This document shows, piece after piece, positions 9,558 through 49,303 of a stretch of DNA of 64,000 nucleotides. The stretch lies in sequence record PZ229304.1; one strand, given 5' to 3'. The stretch is from a phage. Every line of letters starts with the position of its first letter. Position 1 is the stretch's first letter. The notes beneath the pieces are model-generated. The model was given only the letters and a program-made list of their open reading frames with translations. It was not told where the DNA came from and ran no database searches. The translations under genes were made by a program, and so were the position numbers.

Positions 9558-12137
9558 TCAGTGACAAGACGCCCATGAGTTACCAACATCGTAACCAGCA
9601 GTTAGAGGTACATTAAGATTGTAATACTCACCAGCTTTATTAACAGCGATAGATGCTAATTCTCCAGCACGACTGTAGGCTGTAAACCAACCACCTTTAG
9701 GAGATTCATGTACGTTAGCCCAAATCTTGCCAGTACGTTTCTCTTCCTCTTCTTTCCAGGCGTTAACTTTATCCAAACATTCTTTATCAATTTTCTTTTG
9801 TTCTTCTGGATCATCAACTTGAGTCCAACCTAAAGATTCTTTAGAGAACCATTTAAAATGCACCAGATCACGAGTTACTTCAAGCTGCGCTTCATCGTGA
9901 TATGCAATCATTTGTTGAACGAATGACTTATTTTTCCAGTCATCAACAAAAAAGTCAACAGCTAATCCTTCTTCTTCGATAAGATCATCGTAGATAACCA
10001 TTGCTCTTTTTGCACAAATAACACCACCACTCTGGAACAGAGAGTTAAGTATTGCGTGTGCAGATCGTGTAGGTACTTTCCTACCATCAATACCAAGAAT
10101 GTATTTCTTACCTGTTTTAACCCAAAAATCATGCAGACGTTCTTTAAGAAGCGCAAGAGGTTTTGCAGCTTCCCAGAAAGCATCGTATACAAGCTGTCCT
10201 GTATACATATCACTACCAATGGTTTTTGCTACTTTTGCAGCTTGAGCACCATAAGTAATACCATACTTAACAGATTTAGCAGGGCTTCGTTCAAACTTAC
10301 GACCAATAGTATCAGAAATACGTCGAGCCATCATTGTATGAACATCATTAGGTTTTTCCAACAACAGAGCATTACAATATTCGTGTGGTTCCTGCTCGTA
10401 CCGCCAACAGTAGTGTGATTCTATTTTTGCCTCAAGAGAATCAAAGTCATAACCAATTTGGAAGTATTTTGGAACTTCTACACCAAATAAGTTACGCATT
10501 TCATATCCGTACAGAGATGTTACACGTGGGATATTTGCTACTAACCTATGTTTCATACGAGACGTAGCTGCATCACACGTTGCAGCAGGAGTTGGTATAC
10601 GACCATCAGCCCTTACTGCCGCCAGATAACCTTTATCGTAATCCTCTTCATCTTCTTCCCAATCAGCACCACCACCTAGAATAGAGTTTCTACGATGTTT
10701 ATACGTAAGATACTGCACAATCTGCGTAGCATAAGGAAACTTTTCACCTAGTGCTTCCAAGTTAGGACAAATATCCTTCTCTTGCCCTTTTGTAAAGGAA
10801 GGGTTAGTAAGCACTTTAACACCACGACCTTTAGCTTTAGCAATACGATCTCTTAGTTTCCATTCCAAAGTTTCTGGTGTGCACTCCAGATGATCACATC
10901 TATCCTGGCAGAAGTTAGATGCTAATGTTTGATCAACATAGTCACGAATAGCTTTCTCCATTTGTGCTTCATCTTTCTTAATCTTAGTGCCAGATTTAAG
11001 AGTGATATCTTTATCTTTATATTCAGATGGACTCCAACCTAAACCAACTAACCAATTTTTAATATGTGTCGTGTCGTCTAAAGTAGCAGGTACTGTAGGA
11101 TCACAAATAGGTTCTTCTGCTGGAATAGGGAGTTTAAACTCTTTACCTAATGCAAATAACCACCAACCATCTTCTTTTTGTACAAGTTCACCAGAATGTT
11201 TCTCTGCAAACTTTATCATGTTACTTGAAGGTTCACCATTCTTTTTAAACTGTAGTTTAGGTGGAATGAATGATTTCAAATAACCTTTAGTAGCAGGTTT
11301 AGGAGGTAGTACAGGTTCTGCCTCTAAACGACATGCTTCCATTCGAGCATCCAGATCACGAATATTATCTTCTGCTTGTTTCATATTGAAAGCAAAGCCA
11401 CGGTGCTCTTGACGTGTAATAATATCAGCTACACGTTGTTCTAAGTTAAATGGTTCAGACCACTTACTATAATCGCCCCACTCTTCCATCAAATAACGGA
11501 ACACTGCGGTGTTAGCTTTGTTATCGTAAATACAGTAATACAGCATATCTGCTGCAAATGTTCTAAATCTTTCAGTTTCAGGAATGTTTTTTCTGAAATC
11601 AATTTTAACATCCCCTCCAGCTTTCTTAGATAACTCTGCCAGACTATGACCACCGAAGCGATCAGGGTTTAGTGTCTTACTTAAGATCATAGTATCACAA
11701 ATTTCAATGTTACTATTACCCCAAGTATTGTACTTAATACTGTAGTTGAGTTTAAAAAATAATTTAATTGCCAGTAAGTCGAAGTTAATGATGTTGTGTC
11801 CAACTACTTTGGTAATTTTATAGTTTGAATTACCTTTAAATTTACCTGTTCCATTTACAAAATCAGGAAAATCTTTAAGAGGGAAATGGGTATATTCTAA
11901 ATGCTCATATTCCTCCAGTCGGTATTCATACTTTCCGTCAGTCTCAACATATGGACGACCATCGAAAAGATATTTATCACCATCATGGAAAGCAATAATC
12001 TCTCCAGTATCATGACTTTCGCACACAATACAGTGCATTGCAAAACTATCTTTTAAACGATATGGACTTGCCAAGTAATCTACACTTTCGTCATTAAGCA
12101 AGTTGTTACTTTCAATGTCGAAAGTAAAAGCTCCCAT
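9558..12137 (-). CDS. DNA polymerase, family A (T7 gp5-like) with 3'-5' exonuclease domain
   Basis: 859 aa; N-terminal FDIES exo motif; several segments recognisably similar to T7 DNA polymerase as recalled from memory (RFGGHSLAELSKKAGG; IDGRKVPTRSAHAILNSLFQSGG; C-terminal GNSWASCH). Confidence 0.9.
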   Translation of the reverse strand: MGAFTFDIESNNLLNDESVDYLASPYRLKDSFAMHCIVCESHDTGEIIAFHDGDKYLFDGRPYVETDGKYEYRLEEYEHLEYTHFPLKDFPDFVNGTGKFKGNSNYKITKVVGHNIINFDLLAIKLFFKLNYSIKYNTWGNSNIEICDTMILSKTLNPDRFGGHSLAELSKKAGGDVKIDFRKNIPETERFRTFAADMLYYCIYDNKANTAVFRYLMEEWGDYSKWSEPFNLEQRVADIITRQEHRGFAFNMKQAEDNIRDLDARMEACRLEAEPVLPPKPATKGYLKSFIPPKLQFKKNGEPSSNMIKFAEKHSGELVQKEDGWWLFALGKEFKLPIPAEEPICDPTVPATLDDTTHIKNWLVGLGWSPSEYKDKDITLKSGTKIKKDEAQMEKAIRDYVDQTLASNFCQDRCDHLECTPETLEWKLRDRIAKAKGRGVKVLTNPSFTKGQEKDICPNLEALGEKFPYATQIVQYLTYKHRRNSILGGGADWEEDEEDYDKGYLAAVRADGRIPTPAATCDAATSRMKHRLVANIPRVTSLYGYEMRNLFGVEVPKYFQIGYDFDSLEAKIESHYCWRYEQEPHEYCNALLLEKPNDVHTMMARRISDTIGRKFERSPAKSVKYGITYGAQAAKVAKTIGSDMYTGQLVYDAFWEAAKPLALLKERLHDFWVKTGKKYILGIDGRKVPTRSAHAILNSLFQSGGVICAKRAMVIYDDLIEEEGLAVDFFVDDWKNKSFVQQMIAYHDEAQLEVTRDLVHFKWFSKESLGWTQVDDPEEQKKIDKECLDKVNAWKEEEEKRTGKIWANVHESPKGGWFTAYSRAGELASIAVNKAGEYYNLNVPLTAGYDVGNSWASCH

Positions 12138-12632: not shown

Positions 12633-14405
12633 TTAATAAGAACCAGCAGGAATATTCTCTGGGTTACTTGTGTATTGATCGTAATCGTGAAGTGTAGCTG
12701 TTTTAATCTCATAGAAGAAACTACCTGCTGCACCAGTCTCTGAGAACTCACGGTTCTTTAGAATGTAGCAATATGTGCGGTTACGCTCCATAGGATCTTC
12801 AGCTTGTTTATCACGCTCCAGCGCAATTGTGATACCAGCACCTTTAGCAAGGAAGCTACTACCCATTGCATCATCTTCTACAATATGCTCATTACTATTG
12901 TTAGAAGACTTTTTAACGTGTGAAATTACAACAATGGTGATTGCGTACTCTTTCATAATGCGTTTGAGCCACGTCGCAAGTTCCTCTTGTTGTGACACGT
13001 CCATACCAGAAAGCAAATCAGAATAAGGGTCGATAACAAGAATGGTTACTCCGAAATAAATAATCATTTCCAGAACCTTCTCTTTAATCACATCTACGTT
13101 AGCTCCACGATCATCACAAACATAGAAACGTGGTGTTCCATCTTCCCGTTCGTAAAAATCACGAATCTTTTCTTCATTATCTTTTAAAATCTTTTCCTTC
13201 TCTTCCTTTGTCTTACGGTGAAGAGGGATATGCAAGAATGAAGACAGTAAGTTACGAGAATACTTCTTATACGTTGCCTCCAAAGATAAAATACCAAGAG
13301 TATGTTCTGGGTGTGCAAGAATAATGTGCTTCGTAATCTCGTTAACCAACAGTGTCTTACCAATACTTGTTTTTGCAAGTATAACAGTAATTTCTTCTTC
13401 TACCAAGCCTCCACCTAACATATTAGAAGCAACACGCATGAATGGAGGAAGTGTGATCATTTTAGCTTCCAAGCATTCCAGGGCTGCTTCATACAGTACG
13501 TTAGAAGCATAAACACCAGCAGGTGTGTACAGTTTAGCTTTGAAAAAGCGATCAATAAAATGATCAATTTTTCCTTCTACTAACGCCTGGTTAGGATCTT
13601 TAACATCCGTTAGCTCCATCACGTAAACTTTATTACGTGGTAAGATTTTAACACATTTCTCAACCGCTGCACGTCCAGCTTCATCATTATCCATACACAG
13701 AACAATCTTTTTAAATTGATCTAAGAATTTATAACGATGTTGAAGCTGTTTATGTAGAGATGTTTCGCCACAAGTACCAGATACTACAGCAGGAACAGGA
13801 TATTTACCACCCTTGTTATAATCTTTTAGCATCTGTGTTGCAGCCAGCATATCGTGTTCACCACCAACGATTAGAATAGTACCGCTGTGGTTACGATATT
13901 TAAACTCACCAAAAAGATCACAATCCTTTCCTGTTTCACCAATAGGATGCGAAAAATCTTTTGGATCAATACGTTGTTTATACCCAGCAATATTGTAATC
14001 TTTAGTTGTAGGGTATAGTGTTGAAATTACTTCGCCAGTGGCTTCATCGTACATATAGCGTACACCGAAAGGTTTAGAGATATCTTCACGAATACCACGA
14101 TAACCTTTTGGATTAGTTCCAGTGCTGGCTTTTAGCTTATCATGCACTTCTGGATTAAACTCACTACCCAAGATATCCTCCTCTTCAATTTCTTCGCCGT
14201 GTGCATTTAACCATTTTTGATCAGGGATAGTAAAGCCACAAGAAAAACAATGTGCGCCTCGATGGTCTTCATCGGCATCTAAGCCATATACCATTAAATT
14301 GTTTTGTGATCGATCACGTCCTCCTTTCATACAACGAGGACACCCAGTATGTCCTTCTTGACTTAGATCAATGTTATACCCATATTTATTTACAACATAA
14401 GACAC
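12633..14405 (-). CDS. Bifunctional primase-helicase (T7 gp4-like)
   Basis: 590 aa; N-terminal zinc-binding CPRC...HCFSCG primase finger, central primase region, C-terminal DnaB-type helicase with Walker A (AKTSIGKT); adjacent to family-A polymerase. Confidence 0.85.
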   Translation of the reverse strand: MSYVVNKYGYNIDLSQEGHTGCPRCMKGGRDRSQNNLMVYGLDADEDHRGAHCFSCGFTIPDQKWLNAHGEEIEEEDILGSEFNPEVHDKLKASTGTNPKGYRGIREDISKPFGVRYMYDEATGEVISTLYPTTKDYNIAGYKQRIDPKDFSHPIGETGKDCDLFGEFKYRNHSGTILIVGGEHDMLAATQMLKDYNKGGKYPVPAVVSGTCGETSLHKQLQHRYKFLDQFKKIVLCMDNDEAGRAAVEKCVKILPRNKVYVMELTDVKDPNQALVEGKIDHFIDRFFKAKLYTPAGVYASNVLYEAALECLEAKMITLPPFMRVASNMLGGGLVEEEITVILAKTSIGKTLLVNEITKHIILAHPEHTLGILSLEATYKKYSRNLLSSFLHIPLHRKTKEEKEKILKDNEEKIRDFYEREDGTPRFYVCDDRGANVDVIKEKVLEMIIYFGVTILVIDPYSDLLSGMDVSQQEELATWLKRIMKEYAITIVVISHVKKSSNNSNEHIVEDDAMGSSFLAKGAGITIALERDKQAEDPMERNRTYCYILKNREFSETGAAGSFFYEIKTATLHDYDQYTSNPENIPAGSY

Positions 14406-27723: not shown

Positions 27724-28573
27724 AATAATCCCCTTTAACATTAGATTTGTTGATAATGTTGCTTTCAAAAAATTGACGCAGGAAATCAAAGTTCTCTTTG
27801 TATTTTTCAATATTATTGTAACCTTCTGCAAGGCAACCAAAGAACAGTTGTTCTACATAATACAAAGGAAGTTGTGAAAGTGCAATTTTAAAATCAACTT
27901 CGCTTTGACTCATTAGATACTTAATAGGACGAACCAAACATTTAGCATCAGTTTCTTGCTTAATCATTTTAATAAAAGCTGCCAGGTTATTGATATAGTT
28001 GAAGTTAAGTGCAGCTTCGGTGTTGGCTTCTGTACCTTCATACTTTGCAAAGTACAGGAAAAACGTATCGTTTTCAACACCTTCTTTGTCTAAAATTTCA
28101 ATAAGTTTTTCTTCGTGTGTTCCTGTAATATTAACATCATCAATGAAAATCAGAGTTTTATTACCCCAGAAATCACGATTGATAGAGAAAGTGTCACCAT
28201 CGATCAAAGCCTTACGATCTTCTTTGCTAAGAAATCCATAATCATTGATATAACTCACTTTACGATGAACGATATCCCACTCCACTGCTTTACCTCCTTT
28301 GATAGAGATTAGGTAGTTGAGGTGATCTACAAAATGCTCAGATAACACTGTAGCTGCATTTTTCACATAATTATATGGAGATGGAATAACAACAAAACTT
28401 TCATTTACTAGTCGTTCTTCATATTTAGAAAAGAAACTTTCAGCCAGAATGCGTCCCATTCTTTTTGCTGCCTGGTTACTGCCAAACTTTAGTTTGGAAT
28501 AATCTGCAATGTTAAATTTTGCTTCCTTCAGGTTAGTAAAAGTATTAGCAAAATGTTGAATTTGATTACGCAT
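27716..28573 (-). CDS. Phosphoribosyltransferase (type I PRTase fold) domain protein
   Basis: 285 aa; KTLIFIDDVNITGTHEE matches the PRPP-binding motif (hydrophobic-hydrophobic-DD-x-x-TG-x-T) of type I PRTases. Confidence 0.5.
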   Translation of the reverse strand: MRNQIQHFANTFTNLKEAKFNIADYSKLKFGSNQAAKRMGRILAESFFSKYEERLVNESFVVIPSPYNYVKNAATVLSEHFVDHLNYLISIKGGKAVEWDIVHRKVSYINDYGFLSKEDRKALIDGDTFSINRDFWGNKTLIFIDDVNITGTHEEKLIEILDKEGVENDTFFLYFAKYEGTEANTEAALNFNYINNLAAFIKMIKQETDAKCLVRPIKYLMSQSEVDFKIALSQLPLYYVEQLFFGCLAEGYNNIEKYKENFDFLRQFFESNIINKSNVKGDYYV

Positions 28574-29222
28574 TAATAAGTTCCTCTTTTTTAAGTTTAG
28601 CCAACAAGTCTTCTGGATTAATAATATGACAGAACTTCATCCCTATGTCAACAGCTTTTCCATCATAAATCAAACTATCTCCAACGTGTAAAATCTCCTC
28701 TGGTGCGAGATCAAACGTTACCATTTCATCAAAAGAGAGTTTAAAAAACCTAGGATCTGGTTTACACAAGCAAAACTCGTCAGAAAAATGCATAAAGTCG
28801 AATGGTAATTTTGTTAAACCAGAATATACAGCTAAGAAACTACCTGGTACAAAATTAGTATTACTCTTAATACTCAAAGAGTAGGTTGAACTTAGCTCTT
28901 CCAACTTCTTGCAAAGTTCAGGATTCAATGTTGGAGGATGTTTTATAAACATTGCTAAACAGTCTCTTTTTAACCCATCCACTTTATCAAGATCAATATT
29001 CAAATGAGTAGAAAGTGTTTCCCAAGCATTCCTAGACGTTCCACAAATTCCTTTTTCTGCTTTTAAATCCAGGAGAGTTTTTACCTCTTTATATACGGTA
29101 GCTGCTTCTGCTTCAGAACAAGAGGCATACTCGGCAATAACCTTGTTGCGTTCTTCTGCATACAAAGGATTAGCAGTAATAAGAGTATTCCATACATCAA
29201 AAGAAATATGCTTAACAGTCAT
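28566..29222 (-). CDS. HAD-superfamily hydrolase-like protein
   Basis: Start set at MTVKH (GGAGG RBS); motif-I-like FDVWNTL (nucleophile Asp, second Asp replaced by Asn) and motif-IV-like VGDSLIYDG; 8-nt overlap with PRTase gene. Confidence 0.45.
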   Translation of the reverse strand: MTVKHISFDVWNTLITANPLYAEERNKVIAEYASCSEAEAATVYKEVKTLLDLKAEKGICGTSRNAWETLSTHLNIDLDKVDGLKRDCLAMFIKHPPTLNPELCKKLEELSSTYSLSIKSNTNFVPGSFLAVYSGLTKLPFDFMHFSDEFCLCKPDPRFFKLSFDEMVTFDLAPEEILHVGDSLIYDGKAVDIGMKFCHIINPEDLLAKLKKEELINA

Positions 29223-29391
29223 TTTTAATCCTCCGTCCAAAAGAATATCATCTGCTTAATTTTATTGATCTCTTGATGTAGTAACTTTCCAGCATGTGAT
29301 TGATCTTTAATATTGACAGCAAGAATTTCAAGCTCCGTTAGTTTTTCCTGGATAGCTTTATATTCATCATCTGTAAGCATTTTCTTCCCCT

Positions 29392-29583
29392 TTAGAATGG
29401 TAATCTTTGTATGTCACTTATACCCACACCAAGAAGTCTAGCAATATCCTTATCTAAAAGCAACTCTTTTTGTTCTAAAATGTTAATCAGATCTCCTAAT
29501 ACTTCTTTAATATCACGATCATTTTTAGCAACGTGACCACCTGCGGTATCAACTTTATCTTTAAAAACAAAATAATGATCCAT
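29392..29583 (-). CDS. Hypothetical protein
   Basis: Start set at the internal ATG preceded by GGAGGG. Confidence 0.3.
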   Translation of the reverse strand: MDHYFVFKDKVDTAGGHVAKNDRDIKEVLGDLINILEQKELLLDKDIARLLGVGISDIQRLPF

Positions 29584-29602
29584 AATACCCTCCATATAAA
29601 TA

Positions 29603-29626
29603 AAGGAGGCTTTCGCCTCCTTTTAT
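29603..29626 (-). terminator. Terminator hairpin AAGGAGGC-TTTC-GCCTCCTT after the ATPase gene
   Basis: 8-bp perfect stem; T-run follows on the minus strand. Confidence 0.5.
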
Positions 29627-29629
29627 CAC

Positions 29630-30790
29630 TTAGTAAGAACGACCACCAAACACATACTCTGTGTAGTTTTTACGTTCTTTGTTTTTAATAACAACTTCAA
29701 TGTTGTTGCCTTTATCATCGGTGAACACAAAGTGATAACCGTCACCACCCATTGTACGGATGTGTTTTTCATCATACGTCAGCAAGATACGGTCTACACC
29801 CCAGTAGTAGTCACCTTCTTCGTCTTTATCTTCTACGGTAACTACTCCTTCCATTTCAGGAAGATGCTCTTCTCCTGACTTATGATCTACAGCTACAACA
29901 TAACGATTACCGCTAAACAAACCTTGTGCTGTCATACCGTCAATATCTGTATCTGACGAAACATCTCCTGTACGATCTACACCGTTAACTTTCAGAAGTT
30001 TAACTTCTTTTGCAGCATAGCGGTGTTCAGTGATACTGATACCCATTAATGCAAGTGCATCAGAGAATTTGTCATTAGGGTAACGGTTAAGTTCTTCTAC
30101 TAAGGACTGAACAATATCAAAGTTCAAATCCACGGAAAGATTATAAAGCGTTTCAAAATCTGGTAAAAAGGCTTTGTTCTCCAGATTTTTAGCCAGATAG
30201 TCATCCATAGTAGCTTTAGGTAGTTTCTTATAGCTAAAGCTGTAGAAAATACGGCTAGGACGATTACGCAAAAATTCTGATACATAACCATCATTTTTAG
30301 TCAATACAAACAGCTTGTCGTAGCCACCTACACCATCCAGCAGGGTAAGCAAACCATCTTGTGCATCTTTTTCAGCATACAGTTTATCAAATTCATCGAT
30401 CATAATCATCACAGGCTGTGTGATTTTAGACATAAAATTGATAAAGCCTTCACCATTAAAAGCACTACCGATAGAAATAGTAGGAATACCCATTTCACGA
30501 AGAGCAGAAGACAGCATTTTAGCTTGCAAAGTTTTACCGCTACCTTTCGTACCCTCAAGGAGAACGCCTGTGTTTTTACCTTTGCGGCTAAGGAACGTCT
30601 TGATAATACGTTCTGATTTATCATCAGTATCACCGTATGTTACTGAAGGGACTTCCATATCGTTTTTAGGATACAGGAAGAACTCGCCACTTTGAGTAAC
30701 ACCTACACCAAAAGTTCCTGCTGGAATTTCTTCAATATCTGTACCAGATTTCTGACGCAGGAAGATTTGATTGCCGAATACTGTAAACAT
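29630..30790 (-). CDS. P-loop ATPase (AAA+-like), paralog 1
   Basis: 386 aa; Walker A GTKGSGKT, Walker B IMIDEFDK, LTKN sensor-like and NRPSRIFY (SRC-box-like) motifs; paralogous to 45807..46934. Confidence 0.55.
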   Translation of the reverse strand: MFTVFGNQIFLRQKSGTDIEEIPAGTFGVGVTQSGEFFLYPKNDMEVPSVTYGDTDDKSERIIKTFLSRKGKNTGVLLEGTKGSGKTLQAKMLSSALREMGIPTISIGSAFNGEGFINFMSKITQPVMIMIDEFDKLYAEKDAQDGLLTLLDGVGGYDKLFVLTKNDGYVSEFLRNRPSRIFYSFSYKKLPKATMDDYLAKNLENKAFLPDFETLYNLSVDLNFDIVQSLVEELNRYPNDKFSDALALMGISITEHRYAAKEVKLLKVNGVDRTGDVSSDTDIDGMTAQGLFSGNRYVVAVDHKSGEEHLPEMEGVVTVEDKDEEGDYYWGVDRILLTYDEKHIRTMGGDGYHFVFTDDKGNNIEVVIKNKERKNYTEYVFGGRSY

Positions 30791-30810: not shown

Positions 30811-31281
30811 TTAGTCAGATTCCCAAATGTTGTCTTTCTTAACCCACATTCGTTGATTATCTGAACCTCTATAACGTTTCGTTGTTGGTTGATTCATATC
30901 ATACTTACCATCTATCACTATGTCAACCAGTTTTTTAATTTTCTCTGGAATTTCTTCAAAAAGATATCCTGTATATAAGACAATATCTTTTTTGTTTCCA
31001 AAACAATCTCTTACCTTCTCAAGAACATACTCTACAGTGTCAATGTTCTCTTTGTCAAGAGGTTCACCACCTAAAACTGTTAATCCTTTAATGAAAGGTC
31101 GAGATAAATCTTCCAAGATAAGATCTAATGTTTCAGCAGTGAACTCTTGTCCGTAGTTATACGACCAGGCTTTCTGGTTAAAGCAGCCACGGCAACCGTG
31201 GCTACAACCGCTCACCCACAAAGAGCATCTTACACCGTCACCGTTGAGCATGTCAACAGGTTCATATCCGGCGTAATTCAA
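30811..31281 (-). CDS. nrdG: Anaerobic ribonucleotide reductase activating protein (radical SAM)
   Basis: 156 aa; CSLWVSGCSHGCRGC radical-SAM cysteine cluster; close overall resemblance to E. coli NrdG; 4-nt overlap with nrdD. Confidence 0.85.
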   Translation of the reverse strand: MNYAGYEPVDMLNGDGVRCSLWVSGCSHGCRGCFNQKAWSYNYGQEFTAETLDLILEDLSRPFIKGLTVLGGEPLDKENIDTVEYVLEKVRDCFGNKKDIVLYTGYLFEEIPEKIKKLVDIVIDGKYDMNQPTTKRYRGSDNQRMWVKKDNIWESD

Positions 31282-33077
31282 AAGTGTTTCTCCCTTTCTA
31301 GTACCTCTTGCATTTTACCTTTATTATAAGGGCGAGAATTAGGGGCAGAAAGGTATCCTGACACTCTTCTGATTACAGATATGGATTCTTCTTCATGATT
31401 ACCGCAACTTGGACACTCGAAGCCTTTAGCTGTTGCCTTAAATTCACCATGAAAACCACATTTGAAACACTGATCTACAGGTTGGTTCACGCCAAAATAA
31501 GGAATTTTGTTGTAGGCATAATCTACAAGAGTTTCCAGTGCTTGCAAGTTATTTTTAAGGTTTGGTGTTTCTACATAACCTATGTTCCCACCATTACTAA
31601 TTTGTGCAAAACCTTCCTCATAATCCCACTTTTGGAACGGGGTAGTGTGCATCCACACAGGTTGATGGAAAGAGTTTGTCAAGTAGTCACGATCAATAGA
31701 ACCAGGATAGCGATCATTTAATGCTTTGGCAAATTTATAGCACAAGGATTCTGCTGGTGTTCCATACAAACTAAAAGCTAAACCAGAACGTTCTTTAAAT
31801 GTGCAACAGATATCCTTCATATATTGAAGGATGTTTTTACCCATTGCTTTTGGATTGGTGTTATTTGGGTATAAAATCTCCATAGCTTCTGCTAAACCTA
31901 CATAACCGATACTAATAGAGGCATAACCACCTTCAAATAGTTTACCAATCTCTTCATTAGCTTCTAGTCGAGCTAAAGCCCCTTCCATAAACAATGTAGG
32001 GTTTTGAGATGCTTTGGTATGTCTAATACGGTTAACACGTAGCATATGTGCCTTATACGCCATCTCCATATGTTGTTCCAACAGTTCAGTAAATAAGATG
32101 CCCTTTTCACGGGACTCTGCTGCAATGATAGGTAAGTTTAAAGAAACTACGCCTAAGTTGAAACGACCATCATATTTTTCACCTTGCTCTGTTGCATAGT
32201 ATGACAAGAAGCTACGGCAACCCATGCTTGTGACGCGACCATCTGAAGATCCTGTAACTTCTTTGTTTAAAGGTACAGAGATAAAATCAGGATAAATGCG
32301 TTCAGCACAACACTCCATTGCCAGTTGCTTCAAATCATAGTTTGGATCGCCAGCTTTCATGTTAACACCATCTTCCAAGAAGAAGATAACTTTAGGAAAT
32401 ACAGGAGTTACCCTATCTTTCCCTAAGCCTTGTTTGTGCACCATCAGGTAGTTTTTAGTGATCATTCTACCAAAAGCAGAGGTATCCAAACCTAAACTAA
32501 TTGTTATAAAAGGTGACTGACCATTTACACTCATTAGGGTGTTCACCTGGTAGATTAAAGTTTGCATTGCATCGTACACCTGTTTATCTACCATACGCAT
32601 AGCAATATCATAATCACCAACATCAGCATAGATTTTATTAAAACTTGCTTTAACGTATTGACTAAGCCCAGTATCAATATGTGCACAAGTTTGTCCACCA
32701 TATTGGCTAGAAGCTACTGCTTGAATAATTTGAGTTAGGACAGTAGTTGCTACACCGATAGATTTTGGTTTTTCAATATGTGCATTACCAATACGGAAAC
32801 CGTTCTCAAGCATATCTTGGTAATTTACCAGGCAACAATTAGTTAAAGGTGAGAGTAAATAATCTAAATCGTGGATGTGACCATACCCACTTTTATGCCA
32901 TTCTGCTAAATCTTCCGGTAAAATATGGGTCATTGCCATGTGCTTGCTTAGGATACCTGCTAGTAAATCTCGGTGAGTATTAACAATCATTGCAGGTTTG
33001 TTTGCATTTTCACGAGTAAATTCTTCGGATGTTTGTTCGAGGAATCCGATTACATCCTCATATAGTTTTTGGGTCAT
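31278..33077 (-). CDS. nrdD: Anaerobic ribonucleoside-triphosphate reductase (class III)
   Basis: 599 aa; C-terminal zinc ribbon (CFKCGFHGEF...CPSCGN) followed by glycyl-radical motif RRVSGYL. Confidence 0.9.
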   Translation of the reverse strand: MTQKLYEDVIGFLEQTSEEFTRENANKPAMIVNTHRDLLAGILSKHMAMTHILPEDLAEWHKSGYGHIHDLDYLLSPLTNCCLVNYQDMLENGFRIGNAHIEKPKSIGVATTVLTQIIQAVASSQYGGQTCAHIDTGLSQYVKASFNKIYADVGDYDIAMRMVDKQVYDAMQTLIYQVNTLMSVNGQSPFITISLGLDTSAFGRMITKNYLMVHKQGLGKDRVTPVFPKVIFFLEDGVNMKAGDPNYDLKQLAMECCAERIYPDFISVPLNKEVTGSSDGRVTSMGCRSFLSYYATEQGEKYDGRFNLGVVSLNLPIIAAESREKGILFTELLEQHMEMAYKAHMLRVNRIRHTKASQNPTLFMEGALARLEANEEIGKLFEGGYASISIGYVGLAEAMEILYPNNTNPKAMGKNILQYMKDICCTFKERSGLAFSLYGTPAESLCYKFAKALNDRYPGSIDRDYLTNSFHQPVWMHTTPFQKWDYEEGFAQISNGGNIGYVETPNLKNNLQALETLVDYAYNKIPYFGVNQPVDQCFKCGFHGEFKATAKGFECPSCGNHEEESISVIRRVSGYLSAPNSRPYNKGKMQEVLEREKHF

Positions 33078-45357: not shown

Positions 45358-45795
45358 ATGAGTAAAACAAACGCAATCGCAGATAAAGCAACGGATGTAC
45401 TTCTGAACATGGTTAACGTCACTATTCAAACAATGAGTGATGTTGTAGAGTTTGGAAAACAACAAATTCCAGAAGTAATCCATCAATTATTAGTGTGGAA
45501 AGCAGTATCCGCAGGTTTATGGCAACTTTTTAGTATTTGCTTTATGTTTATTACTTTTATTGCTGTGCGGAACCTCGTAAAAGCAATTAAAGATAAAGAA
45601 TGCCTGTGGTCACGAGATCGCTATGGTGAAGTATCTCCTTTACCTATTGTTGGCCTTGTTGTCTGTGCTTTCTTTTTCTTTTTAGGATTTGTTATTTTCT
45701 TTTCGAATTTTGATTGGCTAAAAATCATTATTGCACCAAAAGTGTATCTGATTGAATTTGCTGCTGATTTAATTCGTTCATCTCAACAAAAATAA
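45358..45795 (+). CDS. Membrane protein (hypothetical)
   Basis: 145 aa with several hydrophobic segments. Confidence 0.4.
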   Translation: MSKTNAIADKATDVLLNMVNVTIQTMSDVVEFGKQQIPEVIHQLLVWKAVSAGLWQLFSICFMFITFIAVRNLVKAIKDKECLWSRDRYGEVSPLPIVGLVVCAFFFFLGFVIFFSNFDWLKIIIAPKVYLIEFAADLIRSSQQK

Positions 45796-45806: not shown

Positions 45807-46934
45807 ATGAAATACACGATTTATGGTGATATTGTAAGTGTAAATAAAGATATGGGCGTGGAATCTAACTATCTTCCACCTGGATTCTATACTGTTAGTC
45901 GTGATCCCCTTGGCAATTACTTTTTAAGCCGTGGTAATCTAACAGGTGTACCGGATGTTCTGTATGGTGAAACAGAAAAACGAGCAAATCACGTTATTCG
46001 TACATTCCATCGCCGGAGTGCACAAGGTAAAAATACAGGCTTGCTTCTGACAGGAACTAAGGGCAGTGGTAAAACTATGTTAGCCAAACTCATTAGTCGT
46101 GACCTTGTAGAAGAAGGTATTCCAACTATTATGGTTACTCAAGCCTACAGTGATGCTAATTTCATTGAACTTATTAGTAAGATCACCGACAAAGCAGTGA
46201 TTATTTTTGACGAATTTGATAAAGTATATGAGAAGAAACAAGATCAAGAAGCACTTCTCACTTTGTTAGATGGTACTGGCAGTGGTAATAAACTGTTTAT
46301 TCTAACTAAAAACAGTGGCTTTATCTCTGAATTCTTTCTAAATCGTCCTAGTCGTGTGTTTTATAATTTTAATTATGATAAAATCTCACTAGAAACTATG
46401 ATTGACTATTTAGATAAAAACCTGGATAACAAAGCACACTTGGATAATTTCCAAAGGCTTTGGGATGTAAGTTTAGAGTTGTCCTTTGATGTGATCCAAG
46501 GTATAGTAGAAGAACTTAATTTCTACCCTGATTTATCCTTTAAAGAATGCATCTCTATGATGGGCGTTTCTTTGGGTGGTGGTAATAAGTGGGATATCAG
46601 CAGCGTTGTTATTAATGGGAAACTTCAGAAAGTTAGCTGGGTATCTAGTTGGCATAACTTCACACCTGCAATCTTTTTAGGTGGCTCGTGCACACTAGAC
46701 GTGTACTTGTCATCTCCAAGTGATGCAGACTCTAAAGAAGCCCTTGCTAATAGCTCTTACGTGGTTTTTGATGATGAAGGAGATGCTCGAATTCCATTGA
46801 ATGCGACAAAAATGAAAGCAGATCTTATTACAGGCGGTAAAATCGTTGTGTTTAGTGATGATCCAGAAGATTCTTTCCGTATTGTTCTGGAACCAACTAT
46901 CACCAATGGTGCAACTTTGGCAAGTGTGTTTTAA
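45807..46934 (+). CDS. P-loop ATPase (AAA+-like), paralog 2
   Basis: 375 aa; collinear with 29630..30790 (GTKGSGKT, IIFDEFDK, LTKN, NRPSRVFYNF). Confidence 0.55.
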   Translation: MKYTIYGDIVSVNKDMGVESNYLPPGFYTVSRDPLGNYFLSRGNLTGVPDVLYGETEKRANHVIRTFHRRSAQGKNTGLLLTGTKGSGKTMLAKLISRDLVEEGIPTIMVTQAYSDANFIELISKITDKAVIIFDEFDKVYEKKQDQEALLTLLDGTGSGNKLFILTKNSGFISEFFLNRPSRVFYNFNYDKISLETMIDYLDKNLDNKAHLDNFQRLWDVSLELSFDVIQGIVEELNFYPDLSFKECISMMGVSLGGGNKWDISSVVINGKLQKVSWVSSWHNFTPAIFLGGSCTLDVYLSSPSDADSKEALANSSYVVFDDEGDARIPLNATKMKADLITGGKIVVFSDDPEDSFRIVLEPTITNGATLASVF

Positions 46935-47008: not shown

Positions 47009-48202
47009 ATGGCAGCACCAAAATCATGGGAACAATATAAAGAAGAGTGTCAACCTATTGCGAATAATAAAGGGATTGAGATCCTAGGATATGTTGAACC
47101 GTTTATAGGTTGTGATACGAAAATGATTCTACGCTGTAGGCAGGAACATGAATGGAAGACTTGTAGTATTAGTAATTTCAAGCACGGTAACAGTTGTCCT
47201 ATCTGTTCTGGTAAGAAGCCGTTAACATGGGAAACAGAATTGCCGATCTTGGAAGAGATAGCACAGAAGAAGGGGTATCAGGTGTTAGGGTACGTTGGAG
47301 AATGGAAAGGGAATAAAACAAAACTTGATTTGTTGTGCCATTGTGGGAATAGATGGCAAAGTACAGCAATTCATCAATTTAAAGGCGGTCGAGGTTGTCC
47401 ACAATGTAGGGGGGAGAATACAAGGAAGGCACTAACAATGTCCGACGATCAACATATTGCAGATTTCTTTTCTACAGGGAAATTTAAGGAAGGCACTATC
47501 TTCACTAACACAGGAACACGGAGTAAAGGATGCAGGCATAGTATCTGGATGGTTGAATGTCCTGTTTGCTCTCATGATGAATATGTTCAAGCAGGTGTTT
47601 GTGATGGTAAATTTTACTCTGAAGGAAATAACCTTAAACGAGGGTGCATTCCGTGTCGTTGTGGAAACTATCGGTATACAGAAGACCAGATCACCTATAG
47701 GGTAAAAAAGGAAGTAGAAGGGCAAGGGTATGTCTGGGTAGGTTGGATCGGTAAACCGTCTAGAAGTCACGGTAAGTTTAAATATCTTTGTCTTGTGCAT
47801 GGGGAACAGACAGGGAGGGCTAATAACTTATTAAGCCTCGGTCAAGGTTGTCCACAGTGTGCTGGTCATAATCAACAGCAATTATATATTAATATTGTTA
47901 AAGATAATGATATTATAGTGGCTCTTAAGTTTGGTATAGCTAAAGATAGTGATAGGCGATTAAATAGTCAAAATAGTTGTAATATGTTTTTTATGGAGCG
48001 TATTTGTTTATATGATTTTAGCACAGTGAAACAATGTAAGGCTGCTGAAAGAGCTATAAAGAAAAAATTAAAAACTGGTATTTTAACGGAAAGAGAGTTG
48101 AAAGACGGTTATACAGAAACAGTAAGTGTTTCTGATTTGGAAAATCTTCAAGAAATTATTACACAACATGGTGGCAAATTAGTATATAATAAGGAGATGT
48201 AA
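47009..48202 (+). CDS. Zinc-ribbon repeat protein with C-terminal T5orf172/GIY-YIG-like region (tentative)
   Basis: 397 aa; four repeats each ending in a CxxC pair (CPICSG, CPQCRG, CIPCRCG, CPQCAG) with a conserved GY.VLGYV / TK(M/L) / EW pattern; C-terminus QLYINIVKDNDIIVALKFGIAKDSDRRL weakly resembles T5orf172-type domains. Confidence 0.35.
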   Translation: MAAPKSWEQYKEECQPIANNKGIEILGYVEPFIGCDTKMILRCRQEHEWKTCSISNFKHGNSCPICSGKKPLTWETELPILEEIAQKKGYQVLGYVGEWKGNKTKLDLLCHCGNRWQSTAIHQFKGGRGCPQCRGENTRKALTMSDDQHIADFFSTGKFKEGTIFTNTGTRSKGCRHSIWMVECPVCSHDEYVQAGVCDGKFYSEGNNLKRGCIPCRCGNYRYTEDQITYRVKKEVEGQGYVWVGWIGKPSRSHGKFKYLCLVHGEQTGRANNLLSLGQGCPQCAGHNQQQLYINIVKDNDIIVALKFGIAKDSDRRLNSQNSCNMFFMERICLYDFSTVKQCKAAERAIKKKLKTGILTERELKDGYTETVSVSDLENLQEIITQHGGKLVYNKEM

Positions 48203-48754
48203 ATGCGGATTACTGATAAATATGTGTTCTTCTTCTCGGCAAAAGATGAATTTAGCAACTGGTATCTATCATCTTTTATTGAACCTTTAGCTCCCAAGTA
48301 TAATAATTCTATTACAAGTTCTGTTGAATTTACTTGTGTGGAACAATATATGATGTGGAGAAAAGCATGTTTGTTTTATGATTACAACATTGCATCTTCT
48401 ATTTTAACCGGAGATCTAAGATATACAGGAGAAAAAGAACAGGCATATTATAAGCGACTAGGTAGATTAGTTAAAGATTACGATGAAGCTACTTGGACTT
48501 CTTTACGGGAGAAGATTGTCAAGCGTGGTTTGTATCTTAAATACACACAAAATGAAGATCTCAAAAATAAACTTATCGCTTACGCAGATAAGGAGTTCGT
48601 AGAGGCAAGCCCTTATGATTCTATTTATGGTATCAAAATGGGAATGTGGGATCGTGATGTGGAAAATAAGGACTGTTGGAAAGGACAAAATCTTTTAGGA
48701 AAATGGCATACAGACCTTGCTGTTTATCTAAAAGCACAATCTGATATTTCCTGA
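48203..48754 (+). CDS. NADAR (YbiA/DUF1768-like) domain protein
   Basis: 183 aa; N-terminal FFFS...FSNWY.S.F......F..VEQYMMW.KA.LF.D matches the YbiA/NADAR signature as recalled. Confidence 0.55.
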   Translation: MRITDKYVFFFSAKDEFSNWYLSSFIEPLAPKYNNSITSSVEFTCVEQYMMWRKACLFYDYNIASSILTGDLRYTGEKEQAYYKRLGRLVKDYDEATWTSLREKIVKRGLYLKYTQNEDLKNKLIAYADKEFVEASPYDSIYGIKMGMWDRDVENKDCWKGQNLLGKWHTDLAVYLKAQSDIS

Positions 48755-48968
48755 TATTTTGAAAATTTTTATTTTTATAAAAAGGGGTGTGGGTTTCATG
48801 TACGGAAATCCACCCTCTGAATAATATATCCAGAGTAAATATTATTCTGTACTCTGTTAATAAAGTATTTAATTTGTTTGTTGGACTATGGTATCTGATC
48901 TTTAAAAGGCATACTATCTCTTAACTACTACTTATAACAGAACAGTAAAATCATTTTTATAAAAAGGA

Positions 48969-49170
48969 CAAAATTATTTAAAGTTTTTACAGATTTTTGG
49001 GTACAAATTTTGAAAATGAAAAGTTCAAGTTTGGTCAAAATTATTTAAAGTTTTTGTATGTATTTCTATCCAGATTTTGAAAATGAAAACTTCAATTTTT
49101 TAAAAATTCCCCAGTTTATTTAAAGTTTTTTTGCCTTTTTCCGTAGAAAAATCAAAAATGAAAAGTTCAA
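48969..49170. repeat. Three direct repeats (about 65-75 bp period) each containing TTATTTAAAGTTTTT and TTGAAAATGAAAA(G/C)TTCAA
   Basis: Units begin near 48969, 49036 and 49110; the second motif is itself a partial palindrome (TTGAA...TTCAA); region is non-coding and AT-rich. Confidence 0.6.
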
Positions 49171-49195
49171 TTTCGTGTTTTTATAGGTGTGCGTA

Positions 49196-49303
49196 TGATA
49201 ATCATTCTCATTTGTAAATGAGAATCATTATCATTTAAGTATGTAAGTGATAATCATTCTCATTAAGAGAATGAGAATCATTAGCAAATGAGAATTTTTC
49301 TCA
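49196..49303. promoter_or_regulatory. Cluster of five Fur-box-like 15-mers (TGATAATCATTCTCA and variants)
   Basis: Sites at 49196-49210, 49219-49233, 49248-49262, 49272-49286, 49289-49303; best sites match the 7-1-7 Fur consensus TGATAATnATTATCA at 14/15. Confidence 0.5.

What the first reader, a model, noticed from the sequence alone, without database searches (positions are those of the whole stretch)
29630..30790. Two paralogous AAA+-like ATPases on opposite strands (29630-30790 and 45807-46934)
Both proteins share collinear motifs (GTKGSGKT Walker A, (I/V)IFDEFDK Walker B, LTKN, NRPSR(I/V)FY(S/N)F with an SRC-box-like arginine) but have divergent N-termini. One sits next to the anaerobic RNR genes on the minus strand, the other in the plus-strand block 15 kb away. 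The SRC-like motif is reminiscent of clamp-loader/RFC-type ATPases, unexpected alongside a T7-type replisome. They could form a hetero-oligomeric loader, remodeller or anti-defence ATPase pair.
Basis: partly seen in the sequence, partly recalled or inferred. Interest (0 to 1): 0.45.

Follow-up and report, generated by a model that had tools for sequence, protein, structure and literature searches.

The report
Two paralogous phage AAA+ ATPases
The window (a Justusliebigvirus coliphage) really carries two related copies of a very common but uncharacterised phage ATPase; they look like ring-forming AAA remodelling motors, not DNA clamp loaders, and both genes are already catalogued as "ATPase".

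Summary
Both ORFs exist as described: 29630-30790(-), 386 aa, and 45807-46934(+), 375 aa. They are clear paralogues (39% identity, E 2e-82), collinear over the whole length.

The window is about 98% identical to Justusliebigvirus coliphages, where the genes are PHB05 gp184 and gp214, both annotated "ATPase". Both match PHROG family phrog_2376 over its full length. The family is phage-specific, with about 3,300 clusters at 50% identity, and includes an ATPase in the replication block of crAss-like phages.

The supposed SRC box is R-P-[G/S]-R, the two-arginine signature of classic AAA proteins:
- A family profile hits only p97, Cdc48, AFG2, Rix7 and BCS1 among its 60 best solved structures.
- The family has no sensor-2 arginine, no helical collar and no initiator insertion.
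- The reference genome has no sliding clamp, and a T4-like phage has this family plus its own clamp and loader.

Clamp loading is therefore unlikely. The best reading is an oligomeric ATP-driven remodeller made early or with DNA-metabolism genes, with an unknown substrate. The C-terminal beta domains (20% identical, no known fold) probably set specificity. An obligate hetero-oligomer is unlikely, because the sister genus has one copy. The finding is ordinary and already catalogued, but the family is a large functional unknown.

The parts
29630..30790 (-). ATPase copy 1 (386 aa; PHB05 gp184 orthologue), a phrog_2376 AAA+ ATPase that starts 20 nt downstream of nrdG
   Evidence: ORF. Matches phrog_2376 at E 2.3e-104 over residues 1-376. 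Matches Pfam AAA PF00004 at 29.4 bits against a cut-off of 21.2. 100% identical to the phage Nernie "ATPase". The position after nrdD-nrdG is conserved in a distant relative (L010).
30530..30553 (-). Copy 1 Walker A, GTKGSGKT (residues 80-87)
   Evidence: Located. G, K and T are invariant in the family.
30446..30466 (-). Copy 1 beta2-alpha2 loop SAFNGEG, with an aromatic-x-Gly (F-N-G) motif like pore loop 1
   Evidence: [WFYH]xG occurs at this position in 185 of 253 family members that have a recognisable Walker A. HMMER aligns it with the W-F-G of p97 D2.
30383..30406 (-). Copy 1 Walker B, IMIDEFDK
   Evidence: Located. D and E are invariant.
30242..30304 (-). Copy 1 sensor 1 (LTKN) through the arginine-finger motif NRPSRIFY (second region of homology)
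   Evidence: Located. N, R and R are invariant. The motif aligns to RPGR of p97 and FtsH.
29633..30037 (-). Copy 1 C-terminal beta-rich domain (about residues 252-386), the part most divergent from copy 2
   Evidence: 20% identity to the copy 2 domain. Family alignment.
45807..46934 (+). ATPase copy 2 (375 aa; PHB05 gp214 orthologue), a phrog_2376 AAA+ ATPase in a plus-strand operon of small genes
   Evidence: ORF. Matches phrog_2376 at E 5e-108 over residues 1-367. Matches Pfam AAA at 38.9 bits. The position is syntenic with the single copy of Phapecoctavirus tuntematon.
45807..45971 (+). Copy 2 N-terminal five-stranded beta domain (residues 1-55), conserved across the family
   Evidence: AF2 model with strands at 3-6, 9-12, 18-20, 27-32 and 38-43. 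G7, P24, L40, Y53 and G54 are conserved.
46053..46076 (+). Copy 2 Walker A, GTKGSGKT (residues 83-90)
46140..46160 (+). Copy 2 beta2-alpha2 loop QAYSDAN. The aromatic residue is kept but the Gly of the aromatic-x-Gly motif is replaced by Asp.
   Evidence: The same change is present in single-copy tuntematon (QPYTD).
46200..46223 (+). Copy 2 Walker B, IIFDEFDK
46302..46364 (+). Copy 2 sensor 1 (LTKN) through the arginine-finger motif NRPSRVFY
46383..46568 (+). Copy 2 four-helix lid (residues 193-254). SFDVIQGIVEELN occupies the classic-AAA SGAD position, and there is no sensor-2 arginine.
   Evidence: Helices at 195-205, 209-221, 227-239 and 245-252. Alignment.
46569..46931 (+). Copy 2 C-terminal beta domain (residues 255-375), a family-specific fold, followed by a low-confidence tail that ends in Phe
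30811..33077 (-). nrdD (31278-33077) and nrdG (30811-31281), the anaerobic RNR genes immediately upstream of copy 1 on the same strand
   Evidence: NrdG matches Pfam Fer4_12 and Radical_SAM. Annotation.
47009..48202 (+). CapR-repeat/T5orf172 nuclease-like gene 75 nt downstream of copy 2. It is probably a mobile homing-type nuclease and not a functional partner.
   Evidence: Pfam CapR at 1.1e-38 (4 stretches), DUF4379 zinc finger and T5orf172. Annotated "endonuclease" in relatives.

Best explanation
The two genes are an old, lineage-internal duplication of one phage-specific AAA+ family, PHROG phrog_2376 ("ATPase"). This is very probably the "ATP_43b AAA domain ATPase" of crAss-like phages.

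Each protein has four parts:
- a small N-terminal beta domain;
- a minimal AAA+ core;
- a four-helix lid;
- a family-specific C-terminal beta domain.

Shown directly by sequence: an intact Walker A lysine, Walker B Asp-Glu, sensor-1 Asn and two invariant arginines in an R-P-[G/S]-R motif.

Inferred by homology with classic AAA proteins: the arginines act in trans, so the active form is a ring or spiral oligomer (probably a hexamer) that uses ATP hydrolysis to remodel, pull on or disassemble a protein or nucleoprotein substrate.

Further inferences:
- The proteins are made in the non-structural (early or DNA-metabolism) phase. Copy 2 sits in an operon of small genes next to a divergent intergenic region. 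Copy 1 is probably co-transcribed with nrdD-nrdG.
- The very divergent C-terminal domains give the two paralogues different partners.
- Each copy most likely works as its own homo-oligomer.

They are not clamp loaders. The substrate is unknown. A link to phage DNA replication or nucleotide metabolism is the best-supported guess.
For: Paralogy and family:
- BLASTP E 2e-82 between the two proteins.
- Both match phrog_2376 over its full length, as do the homologues from crAss-like, Staphylococcus, Acinetobacter, Bacillus and Salmonella phages.
- hhalign of the family against the crAss-like cr124_1 ATPase gives E 3.5e-30.
- A neighbour-joining tree puts the two copies plus close relatives in one clade with 90% bootstrap, apart from the rest of the family.

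Catalytic residues: K89, D135, E136, N169, R180 and R183 are invariant in 52 diverse members.

Classic-AAA character:
- The family profile hits only p97, Cdc48, VAT, AFG2, NVL, Rix7 and BCS1 among the best 60 PDB sequences (E 1e-12 to 1e-7). RPGR and Q..LLT.LDG align to the same motifs there.
- hhalign against FtsH gives E 1.8e-10 and score 82. Against the T4 gp44 clamp loader it gives E 2.4e-7 and score 56.
- Beyond the family itself, Foldseek against viral structures gives BCS1-like and FtsH-like AAA proteins.
- The lid has SFD in place of SGAD and no sensor-2 arginine.
- An aromatic-x-Gly motif lies in the beta2-alpha2 loop of most members.

Not a clamp loader.

Context:
- The gene is always in non-structural regions.
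- It sits beside primase, helicase, polymerase or exonuclease genes in crAss-like, Sextaecvirus and Acinetobacter phages and in T4-like contigs.
- It is one of four conserved genes of the crAss replication block (PMC7886860).
- Copy 1 follows nrdDG in two divergent lineages.

One copy is enough: Phapecoctavirus has one place per genome.
Against: - No experiment exists for any member that I could find.
- Assignment to the classic clade is incomplete. The AF2 model has only a 6-residue beta2-alpha2 loop, and the family is 14 residues shorter than FtsH there. So the clade-defining helical insertion is missing, and this region has the same length as in gp44.
- The aromatic-x-Gly motif is degenerate in copy 2 (YSD) and absent from the crAss-like version. 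That weakens a substrate-threading mechanism.
- The replication link rests on neighbourhood in roughly a third of about 20 loci inspected, with no control for the background rate. In the others the gene sits among anonymous small genes.
- Oligomeric state and homo- versus hetero-assembly were not computed.
Confidence: 0.5

Rival explanations
1. Clamp-loader or RFC-type loader. The proteins, alone or together, would open and load a sliding clamp or another ring onto DNA.
For: - Weak HMM matches to the clamp-loader families phrog_168, phrog_5846 and phrog_11838 (E 1e-5 to 1e-8).
- hhalign against T4 gp44 gives 93.5% probability and E 2.4e-7, and the gp44 SRC arginine aligns with R180.
- The beta2-alpha2 region has the same length as in gp44.
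Against: - Classic AAA proteins score better in every comparison.
- The motif is RPGR with two invariant arginines, not S-R-C.
- There is no sensor-2 arginine.
- There is no helical collar; the C-terminal domain is a beta fold without a PDB neighbour.
- No clamp or gp62-like partner is annotated in the 147.7-kb reference genome, and tblastn with T4 gp45 and gp62 finds nothing below E 7.
- The phage has a T7-type PolA and primase-helicase, which by established knowledge of T7 needs no clamp.
- vB_OspM_OC has this family (p118) in addition to a clamp (p010) and loader subunits (p008-009) (PMC7139368).
Confidence: 0.04
2. Replication initiator or helicase-loader type switch (like DnaA, DnaC, Hda or Cdc6). 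The protein would assemble on DNA or on the replicative helicase to start phage replication, without acting as a protein-threading motor.
For: - Sub-threshold NCBIfam and PHROG matches to Hda, DnaC-like loaders, IstB and Orc1/Cdc6.
- The gene sits in replication blocks in crAss-like, Sextaecvirus and Acinetobacter phages.
- Authors of vB_OspM_OC proposed p118 as an origin-dependent replication protein from HHpred hits to Hda (PMC7139368).
- One JGI member is named DnaC.
Against: - All such matches are far below the curated cut-offs, for example Hda at 29.8 bits against 194.8.
- There is no initiator-specific helical insertion: only one 9-residue helix lies between beta2 and beta3.
- There is no sensor-2 arginine.
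- No recognisable DNA-binding domain is present, and both flanking domains are net acidic.
- The family also occurs in a contig that carries a T4 gp59-type helicase loader.
Confidence: 0.2
3. An obligate hetero-oligomeric pair. Copy 1 and copy 2 would alternate in one mixed ring (as in Pex1/Pex6 or Yta10/Yta12), with copy 2 as a subunit specialised by loss of the pore-loop glycine.
For: - The two copies coexist in all 55 close Justusliebigvirus records and in a divergent 151.5-kb contig.
- Their AAA cores are 55% identical, so the interfaces could still be compatible.
- Copy 1 keeps F-N-G while copy 2 has Y-S-D.
Against: - Phapecoctavirus has a single copy of the copy-2 type with the same Y-T-D loop, so that form works without a partner.
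- Nearly all of the thousands of other members appear as single genes of uniform architecture.
- Both copies keep every catalytic residue.
- The genes lie 15 kb apart on opposite strands in different transcription units.
Confidence: 0.12
4. Host-takeover or anti-defence remodeller. This is a sub-case of the best explanation in which the substrate is a host protein complex, for example disassembly of an immune complex as the bacterial Trip13 does for HORMA-CdnC.
For: - Copy 2 and many homologues sit in arrays of small anonymous genes typical of early, host-directed regions.
- In Salmonella phage 7-11 an anti-sigma "Srd-like" gene lies nearby.
- The family is essentially restricted to phages.
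- The C-terminal domain varies quickly.
Against: - There is no specific similarity outside the generic AAA module.
- The PADLOC scan gives only marginal hits.
- The family is conserved across phages of Proteobacteria, Firmicutes, Bacteroidota and Alphaproteobacteria. This argues for a substrate common to phages and not for one host defence system.
Confidence: 0.12
5. Virion-assembly chaperone or translocase of the BCS1 type, or unfoldase partner of the phage HslV-family peptidase.
For: - Iyer et al. proposed BCS1 orthologues of jumbo phages as membrane-proximal assembly translocases (PMC7824862). The present family does occur in jumbo Erwinia, Yersinia and Agrobacterium phages.
- The reference genome encodes an HslV-family peptidase, gp052.
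Against: - There is no BCS1_N domain among the Pfam hits.
- The gene never lies in structural modules in the loci inspected.
- It could not be verified that Iyer's "BCS1" proteins are this family.
- HslU belongs to a different AAA+ clade (established knowledge), and no linkage to the HslV gene is seen.
Confidence: 0.06

Closest known systems
PHROG phrog_2376 "ATPase" (RefSeq "ATPase" of Stephanstirmvirinae; probably crAss-like "ATP_43b AAA domain ATPase")
   Same: Both proteins match the profile end to end (E 1e-104 and 1e-108). They share the same N-beta / AAA / lid / C-beta architecture and the same invariant residues. The genes are 99-100% identical to annotated genes of Justusliebigvirus phages.
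   Different: Nothing differs in kind. Having two diverged copies (39% identity) is a feature of Justusliebigvirus and a few related ~150-kb phages, whereas most genomes show one. The crAss-like version lacks the C-terminal domain and the aromatic-x-Gly loop.
Classic AAA clade (p97/Cdc48 D2, FtsH, AFG2/Rix7/NVL, NSF-D2, BCS1, Trip13)
   Same: - The second region of homology has two arginines (RPGR or RPSR).
- The Q..LLT.(L/M)DG motif is shared.
- SxD stands in place of SGAD, with no sensor-2 arginine.
- An N-terminal accessory domain precedes the AAA module.
   Different: - The short helix that defines the clade between beta2 and alpha2 is missing, and the pore-loop-1 region is about 14 residues shorter.
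- There is a unique C-terminal beta domain.
- No protease, transmembrane segment or second AAA ring is present.
- Sequence identity is only 13-18%.
Clamp loaders (T4 gp44, RFC small subunits, E. coli gamma/tau)
   Same: - A minimal AAA+ core without insertions.
- The beta2-alpha2 region has the same length.
- An arginine finger lies at the position of SRC.
- The DEFD(K/R) Walker B resembles that of gp44.
   Different: - Two arginines in RPGR instead of S-R-C.
- No sensor-2 arginine and no collar domain.
- No clamp or gp62-like partner in the genome.
- Lower profile scores.
- The family coexists with real clamp loaders in T4-like phages.
Hda / DnaC / IstB / Cdc6-Orc1 (initiator and helicase-loader clades)
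   Different: No initiator-specific insertion, no sensor-2 arginine and no winged-helix or other DNA-binding domain. Scores are far below family thresholds.

Membership tests
AAA+ superfamily | P-loop Walker A GxxGxGK[ST] and Walker B hhhhDE | tested here: met
   GTKGSGKT in both proteins, with IMIDEFDK and IIFDEFDK. K, D and E are invariant in 52 members. Pfam PF00004 scores above its gathering cut-off in both.
AAA+ superfamily | Sensor-1 polar residue on beta4 and an arginine finger before beta5 | tested here: met
   N169 (LTKN) and R180/R183 are invariant. In the AF2 model they sit at the end of strand 162-168 and before strand 186-190.
AAA+ superfamily | Alpha-helical lid subdomain following the alpha/beta core | tested here: met
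   Four helices at 195-252 in the AF2 model, with pLDDT about 90.
phrog_2376 phage ATPase family | Full-length profile match including the N-terminal beta domain and the C-terminal domain | tested here: met
   Residues 1-376 and 1-367 match profile positions 1-359 of 363, at E 2e-104 and 5e-108. The N-domain residues G7, P24, L40, Y53 and G54 are conserved.
Classic AAA clade | Second region of homology with two arginines (R-x-x-R, typically RPGR) | tested here: met
   Family consensus NRPGRIFY, with RPSR in both window proteins. Both arginines are invariant. They align to RPGR of p97 and FtsH.
Classic AAA clade | Absence of a sensor-2 arginine (an SGAD-type motif in the lid) | tested here: met
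   The lid motif is [SNT]FD[VM][IL]Q..VEE.N, and no conserved Arg or Lys is present.
Classic AAA clade | Short alpha-helical insertion between beta2 and alpha2 that carries the aromatic-hydrophobic-Gly pore loop 1 | tested here: not met
   - The AF2 model has only a 6-residue loop between strand 107-110 and helix 117-125.
- hhalign needs a 14-residue gap against FtsH here.
- An aromatic-x-Gly remnant is present in 185 of 253 members and in copy 1 (F-N-G). Copy 2 has Y-S-D.
Classic AAA clade | Closed hexameric ring that threads substrate | not testable with these tools
   No multimer prediction or experiment was available.
Clamp-loader clade (RFC / gamma / gp44) | S-R-C motif with a single arginine finger | tested here: not met
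   The motif is R-P-[GS]-R. Only R180 aligns to the gp44 SRC arginine.
Clamp-loader clade (RFC / gamma / gp44) | Sensor-2 arginine in the lid (GDxR type) | tested here: not met
   No conserved arginine is found in lid helices across 52 members.
Clamp-loader clade (RFC / gamma / gp44) | C-terminal helical collar domain that holds the pentamer together | tested here: not met
Clamp-loader clade (RFC / gamma / gp44) | A cognate sliding clamp (and a gp62/delta-like subunit) encoded by or available to the system | tested here: not met
   - No clamp is annotated in any of the 231 features of PHB05.
- tblastn with T4 gp45 and gp62 against the window and PHB05 gives E of 7 or more. This BLAST test is insensitive to very divergent clamps.
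- The family coexists with a genuine clamp and loader in vB_OspM_OC.
Initiator / helicase-loader clades (DnaA, DnaC, Cdc6/Orc1, Hda) | Initiator-specific helical insertion between beta2 and beta3, and a sensor-2 arginine | tested here: not met
   A single 9-residue helix lies between beta2 and beta3, and there is no sensor-2 arginine. NCBIfam scores are 15-30 bits against cut-offs of 180-215.
BCS1 | N-terminal transmembrane segment and BCS1-specific domain (Pfam BCS1_N) before the AAA module | tested here: not met

The most novel reading that the evidence does not exclude
phrog_2376 (about 3,300 clusters at 50% identity, conserved from crAss-like phages to coliphages and Firmicutes phages) could be a so far unrecognised, near-universal accessory motor of large virulent phages. 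It would remodel a replication or nucleotide-metabolism complex.

In Justusliebigvirus it would have split into two specialised motors. The nrdDG-linked copy would service the oxygen-sensitive anaerobic ribonucleotide reductase or the dNTP-synthesis complex, much as Rubisco activase services Rubisco. Alternatively, the two copies would co-assemble into a mixed ring.
Probability: 0.1. Interest if true: 0.65.

Novelty: new member of a known kind. Interest (0 to 1): 0.3.

Why it matters
For this window the finding matters little. The genes are 99-100% identical to genes already deposited and annotated "ATPase" in dozens of Justusliebigvirus genomes, and the clamp-loader idea does not hold.

The broader point is the family itself:
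- It is one of the larger phage protein families with a clear enzymatic core and no assigned function.
- It is essentially confined to phages.
- It has a fixed three-part architecture.
- It is one of four conserved replication-block genes of crAss-like phages.

A coliphage that grows on E. coli K-12 and carries two diverged copies in different transcription units is a convenient genetic system for finding out what the family does.

Tried and rejected
- Curated family libraries gave nothing. NCBIfam had only sub-threshold Hda, DnaC, IstB and RuvB hits. PADLOC had only marginal hits.
- A Foldseek search of afdb50 was not possible because the library is not installed. BFVD returned only "ATPase"-type names.
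- The promoter/terminator scan around copy 2 found fewer sites than the shuffled control (10 against 13.7), so it says nothing about timing.
- Literature searches found no functional study of any member (Justusliebigvirus/ATPase, Phapecoctavirus/AAA, Herelleviridae early AAA+, phage-encoded AAA+ unfoldase or anti-defence, ATP_43b). An Avs5 preprint that surfaced concerns the host's own ATPase domain and is irrelevant.
- I could not verify whether the "BCS1 orthologues" of jumbo phages in Iyer et al. are this family. No accession is given and no supplement is held.
- The scan of bacterial genomes was meant to find cellular contexts. It returned 39 loci, nearly all MAG contigs that look like phage DNA.
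- The idea that loss of the pore-loop glycine in copy 2 is a consequence of having a paralogue was rejected. Single-copy tuntematon has the same loop.
- The idea that the downstream "endonuclease" is a functional partner was rejected in favour of a mobile homing-type nuclease with CapR and T5orf172 domains. Different nuclease types (HNH and others) follow the gene in other phages.
Full report
OBSERVATION

Both ORFs exist exactly where stated: 29630-30790 on the minus strand (386 aa, "copy 1") and 45807-46934 on the plus strand (375 aa, "copy 2"). Each is preceded by a good Shine-Dalgarno sequence.

BLASTP between them gives 39% identity over 375 aligned columns, E 2e-82, so they are unquestionably paralogues.

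The quoted motifs are present:
- GTKGSGKT in both.
- IMIDEFDK in copy 1 and IIFDEFDK in copy 2.
- LTKN in both.
- NRPSRIFY in copy 1 and NRPSRVFY in copy 2.

One detail of the finding is wrong. The N-termini are collinear and belong to a domain conserved across the family. By domain, identity is 29% (N), 55% (AAA core), 47% (lid) and 20% (C-terminal domain). The C-terminal ~120 residues are therefore the divergent part.

WHERE THE WINDOW COMES FROM

The region is 98-99% identical to about 55 Escherichia phages of the genus Justusliebigvirus (Stephanstirmvirinae), for example vB_EcoM_PHB05, muut and VEcB.
- In PHB05 the two genes are gp184 and gp214, both annotated "ATPase".
- Copy 1 is 100% identical to the protein of phage Nernie.
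- The sister genus Phapecoctavirus has only one homologue per genome. It sits in the position syntenic with copy 2: a divergent intergenic region, a run of small genes, the ATPase, then an "endonuclease".
- Copy 1 starts 20 nt downstream of nrdG, behind nrdD. It has the same position in a clearly diverged ~151-kb metagenomic relative (L010).

FAMILY

Both proteins match PHROG phrog_2376 ("ATPase", category "other") end to end, at E 2e-104 and 5e-108.

The same profile matches the homologues in Salmonella phage 7-11, Bacillus phage Deep Blue, Staphylococcus phage CF9, Acinetobacter phage YMC13/03/R2096 and crAss-like phage cr124_1. hhalign of the family alignment against the crAss-like protein gives E 3.5e-30.

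Evidence on size and distribution:
- A profile search of 1.84 billion representative proteins finds 3,319 clusters (50% identity) at E below 1e-30. Almost all are 350-400 aa with a single full-length match.
- A scan of one genome from each of 185,579 bacterial and archaeal species finds only 39 loci, nearly all on MAG contigs.

The family is therefore large, uniform in architecture and essentially phage-specific.

Yutin et al. list an "ATP_43b AAA domain ATPase" as one of four highly conserved genes of the crAss-like replication block (PMC7886860). The cr124_1 member lies between primase and exonuclease, so it is very probably that gene. I did not verify the identity gene for gene.

A neighbour-joining tree places copy 1, copy 2 and their close relatives in one clade apart from all other members (90% bootstrap). 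The pair therefore arose by duplication inside this phage lineage and not by import from a distant phage.

STRUCTURE

An AlphaFold2 model of copy 2, built with a 52-sequence alignment, has mean pLDDT 88.6. It shows:
- a five-stranded N-terminal beta domain (residues 1-45);
- a linker helix (56-72);
- an AAA+ alpha/beta core (77-190);
- a four-helix lid (195-252);
- a beta-rich C-terminal domain (262-363), followed by a low-confidence tail.

The protein ends in Phe in 40% of 256 members and in a hydrophobic residue in 83%.

WHICH KIND OF AAA+?

K89, D135, E136, N169, R180 and R183 are invariant in 52 diverse members. The family consensus around the arginines is N-R-P-G-R-I-F-Y. R-P-G-R is the two-arginine "second region of homology" of classic AAA proteins.

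Evidence for classic-AAA character:
- A single-sequence search aligns NRPSRV with LRPGRL of p97 D2.
- The family profile's 60 best PDB sequences are all classic AAA proteins: p97/Cdc48, VAT, AFG2, NVL, Rix7 and BCS1, at E 1e-12 to 1e-7. RPGR and Q..LLT.LDG align to the same motifs there.
- In like-for-like hhalign runs, E. coli FtsH scores 82 (E 1.8e-10) and the T4 clamp loader gp44 scores 56 (E 2.4e-7).
- The lid carries [S/N]FD[V/M][I/L]Q..VEE.N where classic AAA proteins have SGAD..L..EA, and no sensor-2 arginine.

Against full membership of the classic clade:
- The clade-defining short helix between beta2 and alpha2 is missing. The model has a 6-residue loop, and FtsH needs a 14-residue insertion there.
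- This region has the same length as in gp44.
- An aromatic-x-Gly motif occupies this loop in 185 of 253 members. HMMER aligns it with the W-F-G pore loop of p97.
- Copy 1 has F-N-G. Copy 2 has Y-S-D, as does its orthologue in single-copy tuntematon (Y-T-D). The crAss-like version has nothing comparable.

I therefore describe the family as a separate AAA+ lineage. It carries classic-AAA sequence signatures on a minimal core.

WHY NOT A CLAMP LOADER
- The gp44 SRC arginine aligns with R180 only. That is the generic arginine-finger position.
- There is no sensor-2 arginine and no helical collar.
- None of the 231 annotated features of PHB05 is a clamp or a second loader subunit.
- tblastn with T4 gp45 and gp62 against the window and PHB05 finds nothing below E 7.
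- The replisome genes are a T7-type PolA (9558-12137) and a primase-helicase (12633-14405). By established knowledge of T7 these work without a clamp.
- The T4-like Ochrobactrum phage vB_OspM_OC has a family member (p118) in addition to a sliding clamp (p010) and loader subunits (p008-009).
- A metagenomic contig has a family member alongside a gp59-type helicase loader.

GENOMIC CONTEXT ACROSS PHAGES

I inspected about 20 loci.
- The gene is always in non-structural regions.
- It is next to, or within a few kb of, replication or recombination genes in these cases:
  - crAss-like cr124_1: primase and exonuclease.
  - Staphylococcus CF9: helicase, primase, RNase H and RecJ.
  - Acinetobacter YMC13: primase-helicase and PolA directly upstream.
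  - Two T4-like contigs: UvsX, DnaB and topoisomerase II in one, RNase H, PD-(D/E)XK and gp59 in the other.
- Copy 1 sits with nrdDG and a large helicase.
- Elsewhere the gene sits among small anonymous genes.

This is suggestive of a DNA-metabolism role, but I had no control for the background rate.

A nuclease-like gene often follows the ATPase. In the window it is a CapR-repeat/T5orf172 protein, and elsewhere it is HNH or another type. With the reported introns in crAss ATP_43b, this looks like homing elements targeting a conserved gene and not a partnership.

MOST LIKELY MECHANISM

Shown: a complete and conserved ATPase site, with trans-type arginines.

Inferred from homology with classic AAA proteins: assembly into a ring or spiral, probably a hexamer, in which ATP hydrolysis drives remodelling of a bound protein or nucleoprotein.

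Inferred from anatomy: the conserved N-terminal domain and the fast-evolving, acidic C-terminal domain provide substrate or partner recognition. The 20% identity between the two C-terminal domains implies different clients for the two paralogues.

Inferred from gene order: copy 1 is co-transcribed with the anaerobic RNR genes, and copy 2 with an operon of small genes.

Inferred from phyletic pattern: one copy is sufficient in Phapecoctavirus, so an obligate mixed ring is unlikely.

The substrate is unknown. I put about 0.5 on the overall statement, about 0.9 on "not a clamp loader" and about 0.35 on a replication or nucleotide-metabolism client.

RIVALS
- A DnaC/Hda/Cdc6-like replication switch (0.2) has some published support by HHpred. 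It lacks the initiator insertion, the sensor-2 arginine and any DNA-binding domain.
- A hetero-oligomeric pair (0.12), an anti-defence remodeller (0.12) and a BCS1-like assembly chaperone or HslV partner (0.06) remain possible but have no specific support.
- The clamp-loader reading is at about 0.04.

NOVELTY AND INTEREST

The genes and the family are already catalogued (RefSeq "ATPase", PHROG 2376, crAss ATP_43b). The sequence is nearly identical to deposited phages, and the striking part of the interpretation, a clamp loader beside a T7 replisome, is not supported.

What remains of interest is that a very large, phage-restricted AAA+ family with a novel C-terminal domain has no known function. 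This coliphage lineage offers two diverged copies in a tractable host.

Interest is 0.3.

Noticed in passing
window 47009-48202 (+): A 397-aa protein 75 nt downstream of ATPase copy 2. It has four CapR-homology domains, a treble-clef zinc finger and a T5orf172 (GIY-YIG-like) domain, so it looks like a homing endonuclease. Nuclease genes of various types (HNH, "endonuclease") also follow the ATPase in tuntematon, PsgM04F, Aeromonas LAh_8 and Lactococcus AM2. crAss-like ATP_43b genes are reported to carry group I introns, which suggests that mobile elements target this conserved gene.
   Followed up: partly
L005 (Salmonella 7-11) 9118-10765; L013 (Ochrobactrum OC) 1-4961; L020 11439-13074; PHB05 47832-50530: NAD+ salvage genes (NAMPT/NadV, PRPP synthetase, NadR, PnuC, Nudix) lie within about 5 kb of the family member in three unrelated phages, and are present elsewhere in the reference Justusliebigvirus genome. 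This may be coincidence, because auxiliary-metabolism regions cluster together, or it may be a real association.
   Followed up: no
reference genome NC_052652.1 21626-22279 (outside the window): PHB05 encodes an HslV-family peptidase (gp052) with no annotated HslU partner. Whether either AAA ATPase could serve as its unfoldase was not tested.
   Followed up: no
window 46905-46931 (C-terminal tail of copy 2); family-wide: The family ends in a low-confidence tail whose last residue is Phe in 40% and hydrophobic in 83% of 256 members, typically x-A-F. This is reminiscent of the C-terminal docking tails of other replication or proteolysis factors. Copy 1 ends ...GGRSY.
   Followed up: partly
window 29241-29629 and 45358-45795: Small ORFs flank the ATPases. 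Two tiny genes (PHB05 gp182 and gp183) lie between copy 1 and the HAD-family hydrolase at 28566-29240. A 145-aa ORF with hydrophobic stretches and no Pfam hit ends 12 nt upstream of copy 2.
   Followed up: no
window 48203-64000: There is no ORF of 250 aa or more and no tRNA gene in the last ~16 kb of the window. In the reference genome the corresponding region holds only small hypothetical genes with sizeable unannotated gaps (for example PHB05 137.1-137.9 kb and 139.1-139.6 kb).
   Followed up: no
P0198 (727 aa), P0243 (617 aa), P0244 (471 aa): A few family members are much longer or match the profile in two separated stretches. This is consistent with inteins or intron-encoded inserts, or with an N-terminal fusion of about 220 aa. 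None was examined.
   Followed up: no
window ~20.5-26.5 kb (-) and L015 (Lactobacillus phage Bromius) 7785-8873: Tellurite-resistance/TerC-type genes sit a few kb from the ATPase in both the Justusliebigvirus genome and an unrelated Lactobacillus phage.
   Followed up: no
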